Position numbers: made by a program
In this document: positions 30,101 to 33,100 of the stretch, in pieces
Layout: every line of letters begins with the position of its first letter
Numbering within the stretch: position 1 is the first letter of the stretch
Assembly (NCBI RefSeq): GCF_013315695.1
Contig: NZ_CP054353.1
Source of the DNA: Escherichia coli
GTDB taxonomy: Bacteria; Pseudomonadota; Gammaproteobacteria; Enterobacterales; Enterobacteriaceae
Length of the DNA stretch: 64,000 bases
Strand: one strand, 5' to 3'

Positions 30101-33100
30101 TGGCTATCCTCGGCGTTTCCAAGTCCGCGATGGAGCCGGTGTGGAATGGTAAAGAGTTCGTGCCGCGTCTGATGCTGCCGATTTCTCTCTCCTTCGACCA
30201 CCGCGTGATCGACGGTGCTGATGGTGCCCGTTTCATTACCATCATTAACAACACGCTGTCTGACATTCGCCGTCTGGTGATGTAAGTAAAAGAGCCGGCC
30301 CAACGGCCGGCTTTTTTCTGGTAATCTCATGAATGTATTGAGGTTATTAGCGAATAGACAAATCGGTTGCCGTTTGTTGTTTAAAAATTGTTAACAATTT
30401 TGTAAAATACCGACGGATAGAACGACCCGGTGGATAATGGGCGTCATAAAAAAAACGTCAGACCCGCCGGAGATAAATATATAGAGGTCATGATGAGTAC
30501 TGAAATCAAAACTCAGGTCGTGGTACTTGGGGCAGGCCCCGCAGGTTACTCCGCTGCCTTCCGTTGCGCTGATTTAGGTCTGGAAACCGTAATCGTAGAA
30601 CGTTACAACACCCTTGGCGGTGTTTGCCTGAACGTCGGCTGTATCCCTTCTAAAGCACTGCTGCACGTAGCAAAAGTTATCGAAGAAGCCAAAGCGCTGG
30701 CTGAACACGGCATCGTCTTCGGCGAACCGAAAACCGATATCGACAAGATTCGTACCTGGAAAGAGAAAGTGATCAATCAGCTGACCGGTGGTCTGGCTGG
30801 TATGGCGAAAGGCCGCAAAGTCAAAGTGGTCAACGGTCTGGGTAAATTTACCGGGGCTAACACCCTGGAAGTTGAAGGTGAGAACGGCAAAACCGTGATC
30901 AACTTCGACAACGCGATCATTGCAGCGGGTTCTCGCCCGATCCAACTGCCGTTTATTCCGCATGAAGATCCGCGTATCTGGGACTCCACTGACGCGCTGG
31001 AACTGAAAGAAGTACCAGAACGCCTGCTGGTAATGGGTGGCGGTATCATCGGTCTGGAGATGGGGACCGTATACCACGCGCTGGGTTCACAGATTGACGT
31101 GGTTGAAATGTTCGACCAGGTTATCCCGGCAGCTGACAAAGACATCGTTAAAGTCTTTACCAAGCGTATCAGCAAGAAATTCAACCTGATGCTGGAAACC
31201 AAAGTTACCGCCGTTGAAGCGAAAGAAGACGGTATTTATGTGACGATGGAAGGCAAAAAAGCACCAGCTGAACCGCAGCGTTACGACGCCGTGCTGGTAG
31301 CGATTGGTCGTGTGCCGAACGGTAAAAACCTCGACGCAGGCAAAGCTGGCGTGGAAGTTGACGACCGTGGTTTCATCCGCGTTGACAAACAGCTGCGTAC
31401 TAACGTACCGCACATCTTTGCTATCGGCGATATTGTCGGTCAGCCGATGCTGGCACACAAAGGTGTTCACGAAGGTCACGTTGCCGCTGAAGTTATCGCC
31501 GGTAAGAAACACTACTTCGATCCGAAAGTTATCCCGTCCATCGCCTATACCGAACCAGAAGTTGCATGGGTGGGTCTGACCGAGAAAGAAGCGAAAGAGA
31601 AAGGCATCAGCTATGAAACTGCCACCTTCCCGTGGGCTGCTTCTGGTCGTGCTATCGCTTCCGACTGCGCAGACGGTATGACCAAGCTGATTTTCGACAA
31701 AGAATCTCACCGTGTGATCGGTGGTGCGATTGTCGGTACTAACGGCGGCGAGCTGCTGGGTGAAATCGGCCTGGCAATCGAAATGGGTTGTGACGCTGAA
31801 GACATCGCGCTGACCATCCATGCGCACCCGACTCTGCACGAGTCTGTGGGCCTGGCGGCAGAAGTGTTCGAAGGTAGCATTACCGACCTGCCGAACCCGA
31901 AAGCGAAGAAGAAGTAATTTTTCGTTTGCCGGAACATCCGGCAATTAAAAAAGCGGCTAGCCACGCCGCTTTTTTTACGTCTGTAATTTACCTTTCCAGT
32001 CGCCTTGCTCCGCGCTCAGAGAGACGTTCGCGTACTGCTGACCGTTGCTCGTTATTCAGCCTGGCAGTATGGTTACTGTCGTTTAGACGTTGTGGGCGGC
32101 TCTCCTGAACTTTCTCCCGAAAAACCTGACGTTGTTCAGGTGATGCCGATTGTATACGCTGGCGGGCGTTATCACGTTGCTGTTGGTTCAGTGGGCGCTG
32201 CTGTACTTTTTCCTTAAACACCTGGCGCTGTTCGGGAGTTGCAGACTGAATACGCTCACGCGCTGCCTCTCTTCGCTGCTGGTTCTGCGGGTTAGTCTGC
32301 ATTTTCTCGCGAACCGCCTGGCGCTGTTCGGGAGTTGCAGACTGAATACGCTCACGCGCTGCCTCTCTTCGCTGCTGGATCTGCGGGTTAGTCTGCATTT
32401 TCTCGCGGACTGCCTGGCGCTGCTCAGGAGAGGCCGACTGATAACGCTGACGAGCAGCGTCCTTTTGTTGCTGGGTCAGTGGTTGGCGACGGCTGAACTC
32501 GCGGAAGTCGTCATAGCTCCCATAATGTTCCGCTTCATTAAATCGCTGTGCCGCAGCCTGACGTTGAGTATCTCGCGTAATGACTGGCGCAGTGTGTGTT
32601 CGTTGCTGAAACTGACTTGCTGCTGCCTGACGCTGACTGTCGCGCGATAGAGCAGGTAACTGCGTGGCGCTCATGCCGCCGTTGACATCGGTTTGGTGAA
32701 ACCGCTTTGCCATATCCTGATCATGATAGGGCACACCATCACGGTAGTTTGGATTGTGCCGCCATGCCATATTCTTATCAGTAAGATGCTCACCAGTGAT
32801 ACGGTTGAAATTGTTGACGTCGATATTGATGTTGTCGCCGTTGTGTTGCCAGTCATTACCGTCACGATGACCGCCATCGTGGTGGTGATAATCATCATCG
32901 TCATGATGATGATGGTCATGATCGTCATCGTCCCAGTCGATGCTGCTGAATAGTGCGTACGTGGTAGCAACGCCCATGCTATAGCCGAATCCGCGCACAA
33001 AGCTATCAACAAACGGTTCTCCGGCTGGTGGTGGCAGATAAACCGGCGGATACGCAGTATTGGCCCAGTTCCCGTAAACCACGGTTGGGTTGTAGTTGGG

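What the first reader, a model, noticed from the sequence alone, without database searches (positions are those of the whole stretch)
32221..32940. Coding tandem repeats and a His/Asp-rich tract in yacH
The yacH coding strand contains a 96-bp tandem repeat (32221..32412, two near-identical copies flanked by more degenerate ones) encoding 32-aa units such as ATPEQRQAVREKMQTNPQ(I/N)QQRREAARERIQS. Nearby (about 32850..32940) is a low-complexity tract encoding DDDHDHHHHDDDDYHHHDGGHRDGNDWQ. Repeat copy number may vary between strains, and the His/Asp tract suggests metal binding. The protein has no established function to my knowledge.
Basis: seen in the sequence. Interest (0 to 1): 0.3.

Follow-up and report, generated by a model that had tools for sequence, protein, structure and literature searches.

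The report
Variable repeats in envelope protein YacH
The E. coli gene yacH really does carry a 96-bp coding repeat (2 to 5 copies between strains) and an indel-prone His/Asp-rich stretch, which makes it an ordinary length-variable gene for an envelope protein of unknown function that, in Escherichia only, has lost its usual partner gene.

Summary
yacH (window 31988..33841, minus strand, 617 aa) has four 32-aa units (aa 469-596, window 32054..32437). The inner two are 88/96 identical at DNA level. A His/Asp tract lies at aa 304-334. The His/Asp tract varies by -13 to +8 residues.

Each 32-aa unit is predicted to form two short helices in a basic, Q/R-rich tail under purifying selection (dN/dS 0.11). 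The His/Asp tract is predicted disordered, is 73% NAY codons, occurs in all Enterobacteriaceae orthologues sampled and is absent from betaproteobacterial homologues.

New context: in 28 of 28 non-Escherichia loci and 3 of 3 distant contigs, a DUF2950 gene follows directly. Escherichia has lost it and has the most repeat units.

Metal binding is plausible from composition but untested. Function remains unknown; published hints link yacH to CpxR and cationic peptides. This is an ordinary coding VNTR in a known y-gene, of modest interest.

The parts
31988..33841 (-). yacH coding sequence (617 aa plus stop), a DUF3300 domain-containing protein
   Evidence: ORF. Pfam PF11737 DUF3300 covers aa 75-333 with E=6e-78. 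RefSeq annotates it as yacH and one record is 100% identical. dN/dS of 0.16 in this frame.
33755..33811 (-). N-terminal hydrophobic segment aa 11-29 (VLALICSAGLCAASAGLYI), a signal peptide or signal anchor
   Evidence: It is the only strongly hydrophobic stretch (19-residue Kyte-Doolittle mean 2.04). AF2 predicts a helix at aa 9-24. A betaproteobacterial homologue has a hydrophobic N-terminal segment ending in ...PLQASA followed by QGAG, which looks like a signal peptide by eye. The Cys is not conserved (Buttiauxella has Gly), so it is not a lipobox.
33620..33742 (-). Disordered Pro/Thr/Ser/Ala linker aa 34-74, the fastest-evolving part of the gene
   Evidence: pLDDT below 50. dN/dS 0.63 and nucleotide identity down to 87.5% against K-12.
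32933..33619 (-). DUF3300 core aa 75-303: helical domain (aa 75-184), a variable linker, then a Pro-rich beta region ending in the invariant W303
32840..32932 (-). His/Asp-rich low-complexity tract aa 304-334 (DDDDHDHHHHDDDDYHHHDGGHRDGNDWQHN)
   Evidence: 12 D/E and 10 H in 31 residues. 32 of 44 codons in aa 304-347 are NAY, against 12.7% in the rest of the gene. pLDDT below 50. Allelic indels of +8, +4, +2, -1, -2, -3 and -13 aa. Present in all Enterobacteriaceae orthologues sampled and absent from the betaproteobacterial homologue L045.
32540..32647 (-). Older internal duplication aa 399-434 (SRDSQRQAAASQF... and TRDTQRQAAAQRF...), carrying the family-wide R-D-x-x-R-Q-x-A helix motif
   Evidence: Sequence. 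R400, D401, A407 and Q412 are nearly invariant and R404 is invariant across 81 family members. Predicted helices at aa 400-415 and 423-437.
32054..32437 (-). Four tandem 96-bp (32-aa) units U1-U4, aa 469-596; U1 and U2 are near-identical and copy number is variable
   Evidence: TRF, unit coordinates, pairwise identities. Alleles with 2, 3, 4 and 5 units. Each unit is predicted to form two helices at pLDDT 70-90. dN/dS 0.11.
31991..32485 (-). Whole basic Q/R-rich helical tail aa 453-617, including half-units before and after the four full units
   Evidence: 37 K/R, 20 D/E and 34 Q in 165 aa. Helices predicted from aa 457 to 616. Sub-threshold Pfam DUF3106 match, 17.3 bits against a 24.3 cut-off.
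31918..31987 (.). 70-bp yacH-lpdA spacer, the position where a DUF2950 gene sits in other Enterobacteriaceae
   Evidence: A DUF2950 gene lies immediately downstream of yacH in 28 of 28 non-Escherichia loci. No remnant in Escherichia spacers. No DUF2950-like DNA in 5,426 E. coli genomes.

Best explanation
yacH encodes a protein exported to the cell envelope. It has one N-terminal signal or anchor helix and a conserved DUF3300 core whose fold has no solved relative. It carries two fast-changing low-complexity modules. The 96-bp repeats encode pairs of short helices, one per 16-aa half-unit of the form [ST]-P-E-Q-R-Q-x-x-R-E-K-x-Q. They extend a basic, Gln/Arg-rich helical tail that the whole family has in simpler form. 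Because two units are 92-99% identical at DNA level, unequal recombination or replication slippage adds or removes whole units in frame. This gives stable lineage-specific alleles of 2 to 5 units, which is length variation rather than on/off switching. The His/Asp tract is a disordered run of NAY codons inserted after the invariant Trp at the end of the core in Enterobacteriaceae. It grows and shrinks by slippage between short direct repeats such as GATCATGACCAT and CATCATCAT. Inferred, not shown: the acidic and His-rich loop binds divalent cations (Zn, Ni or Cu) or other cationic ligands in the periplasm, and the basic tail is a length-tunable binding or spacer arm. Escherichia lost the family's usual DUF2950 partner gene and has the most repeat units.
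For: Shown here:
- Repeat anatomy.
- Copy-number alleles: 4 units (1854 bp), 3 units (1758 or 1764 bp), 2 units (1662 bp) and 5 units (P0001, 648 aa), all in frame.
- In a rank-spread sample of 60 genomes, about 30 have four units, about 28 have three and 1 has two.
- Recent homogenisation of units: L009 U1-U2 are 95/96 identical and P0001 has three identical units.
- Purifying selection on the tail (dN/dS 0.11).
- One predicted helix per half-unit at pLDDT 70-90, and a disordered His/Asp tract.
- The tract is 73% NAY codons, and its indels are flanked by direct repeats.
- The tract is present in about 30 Enterobacteriaceae species and absent from the betaproteobacterial homologue L045.
- Export: a single hydrophobic N-terminal segment.
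- DUF2950 lies directly downstream in 28 of 28 non-Escherichia loci and 3 of 3 distant contigs, and is absent in Escherichia.
- PEQRQ-type motifs number 4-5 in Escherichia and 0-3 elsewhere.

From the literature:
- DUF3300 and DUF2950 both have signal peptides and are co-localised in rhizobia (PMC4653623).
- yacH is CpxR-regulated, and a deletion mutant survives protamine better (PMC9600279).
- yacH is induced by a cathelicidin-derived peptide (PMC6737244).
Against: - No assay or homology ties the His/Asp tract to metals.
- His count ranges from 1 (Buttiauxella agrestis) to 11 (E. albertii), so His is not strictly conserved.
- The NAY-codon make-up offers a mutational explanation for the composition.
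- The gene is dispensable in some strains: a frameshift in L008, an IS1 insertion in L018 and an 8-bp deletion in a Salmonella isolate.
- Whether the N-terminal helix is cleaved, and where the protein finally sits, was not determined.
- The link between DUF2950 loss and repeat gain rests on a single lineage.
Confidence: 0.6

Rival explanations
1. Both features are neutral by-products of slippage. Repeat number and tract length drift in a weakly constrained, dispensable gene, and neither has a specific function.
For: - Many length alleles exist, along with other in-frame duplications of 45 aa (P0002) and 17 aa (P0118).
- Pseudogene alleles exist (PMC10048834).
- His content ranges from 1 to 11 across genera, and the tract is 62-90% NAY codons in orthologues.
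- yacH dN is 0.025 against at most 0.0005 for its neighbours lpdA and acnB.
Against: - dN/dS is 0.11 in the repeats and 0.15 in the tract.
- All but two of the length classes seen are in frame; the exceptions are the 1847-bp and 1757-bp alleles.
- The gene is present in 5425 of 5426 genomes.
- A D-run followed by an H-run is kept in the same place in all Enterobacteriaceae orthologues sampled, even though the core domain has diverged by 26-36%.
Confidence: 0.25
2. YacH is a Cpx-controlled periplasmic chaperone or adaptor that works like CpxP, Spy or ZraP. The [ST]PEQ helices would be LTxxQ-like client-binding hairpins and the His/Asp tract a ZraP-like metal switch.
For: - The motif LTQQQKDAARQRY / SPEQRQAVREKM resembles LTxxQ.
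- Small secreted proteins found with the YacH tail match DUF3106 above its cut-off and LTXXQ or Metal_resist below theirs.
- yacH is CpxR-regulated and linked to cationic-peptide stress (PMC9600279; PMC6737244).
- The tail is basic and helical.
Against: - YacH has no Pfam LTXXQ or Metal_resist match, even at E<=10.
- phmmer of the tail against all PDB sequences at E<=10 returned only a glutamyl-tRNA synthetase, not Spy, CpxP or ZraP.
Confidence: 0.1
3. YacH is surface-exposed, and its length and sequence variation reflect diversifying selection from phages, colicins or host immunity.
For: - Allelic diversity is unusually high. Only 5 genomes are at least 99% identical to the window allele and 3849 are 90-95% identical.
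- The alleles look mosaic in the alignment, with two distinct versions of the aa 191-234 linker.
- The aa 34-74 linker has dN/dS 0.63.
- A computational 'extracellular' label appears in PMC9600279.
Against: - No region has dN/dS above 1.
- The units are multiples of three, so there is no phase switching.
- Copy number is the same across the six K-12 laboratory derivatives and the two O157:H7 records in the sample.
- There is no beta-barrel, autotransporter or other outer-membrane anchor, only one N-terminal hydrophobic segment.
Confidence: 0.05

Closest known systems
DUF3300-DUF2950 gene pairs of Proteobacteria (Pfam PF11737 and PF11453; described in rhizobia, PMC4653623)
   Same: YacH matches DUF3300 at E=6e-78. 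Like the rhizobial proteins it has an N-terminal export signal and a low-complexity C-terminal tail. Its orthologues in 28 other Enterobacteriaceae loci keep the DUF2950 gene directly downstream.
   Different: Escherichia lacks DUF2950 entirely. It has the Enterobacteriaceae-specific His/Asp insertion and an expanded 32-aa repeat array. The pair has no known function.
His/Asp-coding VNTR STTR5 in Salmonella yohM/rcnA (nickel/cobalt efflux pump), recalled from general knowledge and not checked here
   Same: It is an in-frame, copy-number-variable repeat of His and Asp codons in a disordered loop of an enterobacterial envelope protein, and it differs between strains.
   Different: RcnA is a characterised metal exporter, so a metal role for its loop is well grounded. 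YacH has no link to metal transport, and its tract is an imperfect NAY-codon run rather than a clean 6-bp repeat.
LTxxQ proteins CpxP, Spy and ZraP (Pfam PF07813 and PF13801)
   Same: They are periplasmic, helical, basic and Cpx-linked. ZraP combines such helices with metal binding. The YacH half-unit motif resembles LTxxQ.
   Different: There is no significant sequence, profile or fold similarity. YacH is about four times larger and has a different core domain.
DUF3106 (PF11304) small secreted repeat proteins
   Same: They have the same kind of roughly 16-aa [ST]-P-E-[EQ]-[RK] helix repeat after a signal peptide (P0137, P0141, P0144).
   Different: The YacH tail scores 17.3 bits against a 24.3 cut-off. 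DUF3106 proteins lack the DUF3300 core and are themselves uncharacterised.

Membership tests
DUF3300 (Pfam PF11737) | Profile match above the Pfam gathering score | tested here: met
   261.9 bits against a cut-off of 25, E=6e-78, aa 75-333 covering profile positions 2-227 of 227.
DUF3300 (Pfam PF11737) | N-terminal export signal | tested here: inconclusive
   There is one hydrophobic segment at aa 11-29 (KD 2.04) and a predicted helix at aa 9-24. A homologue has a signal-peptide-like N-terminus and the literature reports signal peptides. Cleavage was not tested and no dedicated predictor was available.
DUF3300-DUF2950 two-gene module | A DUF2950 gene immediately downstream | tested here: not met
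   It is present in 28 of 28 non-Escherichia loci and 3 of 3 distant contigs. It is absent from the window and all Escherichia loci, with no remnant and no similar DNA in 5,426 E. coli genomes.
Coding variable-number tandem repeat | Head-to-tail copies with a unit length that is a multiple of three | tested here: met
   96-bp period, 3.6 copies; in-frame 32-aa units.
Coding variable-number tandem repeat | Copy number differs between strains | tested here: met
   Alleles with 2, 3, 4 and 5 units.
Phase-variable contingency locus | A repeat whose copy-number change shifts the reading frame or promoter spacing (on/off switching) | tested here: not met
   The units are 96 bp and the tract indels are multiples of three. 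The frameshift examined (L008) arose in a T5 run. The frameshift reported in a Salmonella isolate is an 8-bp deletion.
LTxxQ / CpxP-Spy-ZraP family (PF07813, PF13801) | Profile or sequence similarity to family members | tested here: not met
   No Pfam hit at E<=10. No Spy, CpxP or ZraP among PDB sequence hits at E<=10.
LTxxQ / CpxP-Spy-ZraP family (PF07813, PF13801) | Structural similarity to the Spy/CpxP helical hairpin cradle | tested here: not met
DUF3106 (PF11304) | Profile match above the gathering score | tested here: not met
   17.3 bits against 24.3, E=0.007, for the tail alone.
His-rich metal-binding proteins | A cluster of His with Asp/Glu that can chelate divalent metals | tested here: met
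   10 H and 12 D/E in 31 residues, including HHHH and HHH runs.
His-rich metal-binding proteins | Demonstrated metal binding | not testable with these tools
   This needs ITC, ICP-MS or IMAC on the protein or peptide. No report was found in the papers read.

The most novel reading that the evidence does not exclude
Escherichia YacH is the orphaned half of a widespread, uncharacterised two-protein envelope module (DUF3300 plus DUF2950) whose fold has no solved relative. After the partner was lost, the basic helical repeat array expanded to replace or re-purpose the partner's role. Together with a metal- or cation-binding His/Asp loop, it now sets envelope sensitivity to cationic peptides, with repeat number tuning that trait between lineages.
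Probability: 0.1. Interest if true: 0.55.

Novelty: new member of a known kind. Interest (0 to 1): 0.28.

Why it matters
yacH is one of the remaining E. coli genes with no known function, and it is present in essentially every strain. Three results make it easier to study. First, there is a natural allelic series of 2 to 5 repeat units and several His/Asp tract lengths, which can be tested directly in envelope-stress, cationic-peptide and metal assays. Second, the protein normally works beside DUF2950, which points to a partner that can be re-introduced experimentally. Third, the repeat is a simple PCR-sized marker that splits E. coli roughly in half. None of this changes current understanding, so the finding is useful but modest.

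Tried and rejected
- **NCBIfam:** no family matched.
- **LTxxQ/CpxP/Spy/ZraP idea:** rejected as membership. No Pfam hit even at E<=10, no PDB sequence hit, and no fold hit.
- **Second transmembrane helix at aa 282-303:** rejected for E. coli, where hydrophobicity is below 0.9.
- **Lipoprotein:** rejected. There is no lipobox and the Cys is not conserved.
- **CpxR box search (GTAAA-N5-GTAAA):** only a 2-mismatch site upstream at 33896..33910, not distinguishable from chance.
- **Promoter and terminator scan:** nothing above the shuffled expectation. The 'terminators' inside the repeat are on the antisense strand and simply repeat with the unit.
- **DUF2950 remnants in Escherichia spacers:** none found.
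- **Representative-library search with the tail:** only 26 hits, mostly fragments.
- **Literature searches:** most 'yacH' hits were author names, and the metal-term search was uninformative because yacH was not made a required term.
- **Full census of copy number:** not possible with the tools. Only a 60-genome rank-spread sample was available.
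Full report
**1. What is there**

The window is E. coli DNA. The finding lies in a 617-aa ORF on the minus strand (31988..33841), between lpdA and acnB. RefSeq annotates this ORF as yacH, a DUF3300 domain-containing protein, and one complete genome is 100% identical over the gene. Pfam places DUF3300 on aa 75-333 (E=6e-78). NCBIfam has no model for it.

Tandem Repeats Finder reports a 96-bp period over 32105..32452 (3.6 copies, 80% matches). An inner core at 32221..32452 has 2.4 copies at 91%. In frame there are four 32-aa units:

| Unit | Residues | Window coordinates |
|---|---|---|
| U1 | aa 469-500 | 32342..32437 |
| U2 | aa 501-532 | 32246..32341 |
| U3 | aa 533-564 | 32150..32245 |
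| U4 | aa 565-596 | 32054..32149 |

Half-units lie on either side at aa 453-468 and 597-617. DNA identity is 88/96 for U1-U2, 68/96 for U2-U3 and 51/96 for U3-U4. Over aa 304-334 it has 12 D/E and 10 H in 31 residues.

**2.

yacH is found in 5425 of 5426 complete E. coli genomes. I took 60 genomes at even steps down the ranking. The matched gene length was 1854 bp in 27 of them. It was 1758 bp in 16, with four more records whose match stops at 1648 bp (the one examined is also a 1758-bp gene). It was 1764 bp in 6. Lengths of 1662, 1782, 1815, 1848, 1847, 1757 and 1860 bp occurred once each.

Alignment of fetched alleles shows what these lengths mean:
- 1758 and 1764 bp alleles have three units.
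- The 1662-bp allele has two units.
- The 1848- and 1815-bp alleles have four units with a shorter His/Asp tract (-2 and -13 aa).
- The 1764- and 1782-bp alleles have three units with a longer tract (+2 and +8 aa).

A five-unit protein of 648 aa exists in the protein collection. So do alleles with other in-frame duplications of 45 aa and 17 aa, and tract variants of +4, -1 and -3 aa.

Roughly half of the sampled genomes carry four units and half carry three. In the sample, the six K-12 derivatives and the two O157:H7 records carry four units, and the O111:H11 record carries three. This looks like a stable lineage marker rather than a rapidly switching locus.

Units within one allele can be almost identical: 95/96 in L009, and three identical units in P0001. 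This points to recent duplication or gene conversion.

Tract indels are flanked by short direct repeats such as GATCATGACCAT and CATCATCAT. A published Salmonella isolate has an 8-bp GATCATCA deletion in the same tract that frameshifts the gene (PMC10048834). Other inactivating lesions are a -1 deletion in a T5 run in unit 4 (L008) and an IS1 insertion (L018).

**3. How the gene evolves**

| Gene (window vs K-12) | Nucleotide identity | dN | dS |
|---|---|---|---|
| yacH | 94.8% | 0.025 | 0.158 |
| lpdA | 98.8% | 0 | 0.051 |
| acnB | 97.4% | 0.0005 | 0.112 |

The other flanking genes compared (speE, speD, yacL, aceF) are 98.2-99.5% identical. LpdA has the same protein accession in every allele I fetched that shows lpdA.

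Overall dN/dS for yacH is 0.16. It is 0.63 in the aa 34-74 linker, 0.10 in the helical core, 0.15 in the His/Asp tract and 0.11 in the repeats. The repeats are therefore protein-coding sequence under purifying selection, not junk. No region shows positive selection.

**4. Anatomy of the protein**

Only one segment is strongly hydrophobic: aa 11-29, with a Kyte-Doolittle mean of 2.04.

An AlphaFold2 model built on an 81-sequence alignment has mean pLDDT 68. It shows:
- a helix at aa 9-24
- disorder over aa 25-70
- a confident helical domain at aa 75-184 (pLDDT above 90)
- a few beta-strands up to aa 292
- disorder through the His/Asp tract (aa 303-358, pLDDT below 50)
- a run of short helices from aa 457 to 616 at pLDDT 70-90

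In the first three units each 16-aa half-unit forms one predicted helix, so a 32-aa unit is a helix pair. The half-unit motif is [ST]-P-E-Q-R-Q-x-x-R-E-K-x-Q. The second half-unit (QQRREAARERIQ) echoes a motif conserved across the family, with R404 invariant and R400, D401, A407 and Q412 nearly invariant. The tail is strongly basic and Gln-rich: 37 K/R, 20 D/E and 34 Q in 165 aa.

**5. The His/Asp tract in context**

In aa 304-347, 32 of 44 codons are NAY (Asp, His, Asn, Tyr), against 12.7% in the rest of the gene. All Enterobacteriaceae orthologues I recovered have a tract in the same place, directly after an invariant Trp. It typically reads D3-6, then H3-5, then D3-4, then Y, then H2-3, followed by Gly and Asn.

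His count ranges from 1 (Buttiauxella agrestis) to 11 (E. albertii), while the leading Asp run is nearly constant. The betaproteobacterial homologue examined (L045) has no such tract.

The tract is therefore a lineage-specific, disordered, slippage-prone insertion. Its acidic character is better conserved than its His content.

Metal binding is chemically plausible. The only PDB sequence matches to the protein are the N-terminal regions of engineered fusion receptors, which I read as purification tags. It remains an inference.

**6. Family context and a gene loss**

A scan of one genome per species returned 35 Enterobacteriaceae loci. The divergent acnB/yacH arrangement is conserved. AcnB stays 91-99.6% identical and LpdA 95-100%, while the YacH core drops to 64-74%.

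In 28 of 28 non-Escherichia loci with enough sequence, a gene starts about 10-70 bp after the yacH stop codon. The four I scanned match Pfam DUF2950 at E=1e-75 to 2e-105. Three distant betaproteobacterial contigs show the same DUF3300-DUF2950 pair among otherwise unrelated neighbours. A rhizobial genome study independently reported that the two are always co-localised, both carry signal peptides, and neither has a characterised member (PMC4653623).

Every Escherichia locus lacks DUF2950, including E. albertii, E. whittamii and the window. No remnant remains in the spacer, and no similar DNA exists in the 5,426 E. coli genomes at blastn sensitivity.

Escherichia proteins are also the longest (584-617 aa against 516-585 aa) and carry 4-5 PEQRQ-type motifs against 0-3 elsewhere. 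The repeat expansion and the partner loss thus share a lineage. With only one such lineage, no causal link can be claimed.

**7. Function**

The literature gives only indirect hints:
- yacH is in the CpxR regulon. Its mRNA falls with protamine and cecropin A, and a deletion mutant survives protamine better than wild type (PMC9600279).
- Expression depends on Rob (PMC7537768).
- yacH is induced in a uropathogenic strain by a cathelicidin-derived peptide (PMC6737244).

I tested whether the tail belongs to the LTxxQ chaperones (CpxP, Spy, ZraP), which it resembles in motif, charge and regulation. It does not by any test available. There is no Pfam hit at E<=10, no PDB sequence hit and no fold hit.

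The only profile signal is a sub-threshold DUF3106 match of 17.3 bits against a 24.3 cut-off. Small secreted proteins with the same type of repeat do match DUF3106, but that family is also uncharacterised.

My best account is as follows. YacH is an exported envelope protein. Its basic helical tail is a modular, length-variable arm, and its acidic His/Asp loop is a flexible cation-binding or charge-bearing element. Length variation arises by recombination or slippage and is tolerated rather than adaptive switching.

- **Shown:** the anatomy, the variation, the selection pattern and the gene-pair context.
- **Inferred:** export topology, helix formation, and any metal or peptide binding.

**8. 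Verdict**

It is an ordinary coding VNTR plus a low-complexity tract in a known, uncharacterised gene. The added value is the allelic series, the evidence that both modules are under constraint, the absence of any solved structural relative for DUF3300, and the Escherichia-specific loss of the DUF2950 partner.

Noticed in passing
window 31918..31987; loci L019-L047 just downstream of yacH: Escherichia lacks the DUF2950 gene that directly follows yacH in 28 of 28 other Enterobacteriaceae loci and in 3 distant betaproteobacterial contigs. No remnant remains, and none is found elsewhere in 5,426 E. coli genomes.
   Followed up: yes
window 30286..30492 (aceF-lpdA intergenic): This spacer is 207 bp in the window and 324 bp in K-12. 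K-12 carries an extra segment of about 140 bp that looks like an ERIC/IRU element (identified from memory of the consensus); the window has 29 unrelated bases in its place.
   Followed up: partly
L005 2359-2599, L006, L014, L017; L016 7594-8342: The yacH-lpdA spacer is 70 bp in the window, 241-245 bp with REP-like palindromes in other E. coli and Escherichia lineages, and 749 bp in E. albertii, where the opposite strand appears to encode a small protein with a hydrophobic N-terminus.
   Followed up: no
L018 6894-7662 (E. coli E69): yacH is interrupted at about codon 370 by a 769-bp insertion with an 8-bp duplication. The insertion encodes an InsA-like peptide, so it is IS1, and it truncates the protein to 392 aa.
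   Followed up: yes
L008 (E. coli A16), codon 571 of yacH: A pseudogene allele caused by loss of one T from a T5 run inside repeat unit 4. A second odd-length allele (1757 bp, hit H37) was not examined.
   Followed up: partly
P0002/P0004 (662 aa), P0118 (634 aa), P0013 (620 aa), P0116 (621 aa), P0103 (612 aa): Other length changes occur in E. coli YacH outside the main repeat. They are a 45-aa duplication spanning aa ~417-461, a 17-aa duplication inside unit 3, a 3-aa PEP insertion, a WDDD duplication at the start of the tract, and a 5-aa deletion in the conserved core.
   Followed up: partly
window 31988..33841 vs 5,425 genomes: The window's yacH allele is rare. Only 5 genomes are at least 99% identical, the next-best sampled hit is 96.4% identical, and most genomes are 90-95% identical. 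Two clearly different versions of the aa 191-234 linker occur, which suggests mosaic alleles made by recombination.
   Followed up: partly
L024 8401-10889 (Enterobacter sp.); similar spacing in L030, L042, L047: About 4 kb lies between DUF2950 and lpdA in some genera. It holds three ORFs: one of 434 aa with a hydrophobic N-terminus, a 201-aa response-regulator-like protein, and a 159-aa protein with a signal-peptide-like start. None was scanned.
   Followed up: no
window 30430..31917 and 34043..36793: The mechanical ORF list over-extends both neighbours. lpdA really starts at ATG 30493 (MSTEIK...). acnB really starts at 34196, which gives the expected 865 aa.
   Followed up: yes
window 32150..32650 (+) and 32693..32953 (+): Antisense ORFs of 166 and 86 aa overlap the repeat and the His/Asp tract, and their own internal repeats mirror the yacH units. 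I took them to be by-products of the repeat, because selection acts on the minus-strand frame and RefSeq annotates only yacH here.
   Followed up: partly
summary: Five of the 9,062 matching places are on records labelled as plasmids. They were not examined.
   Followed up: no
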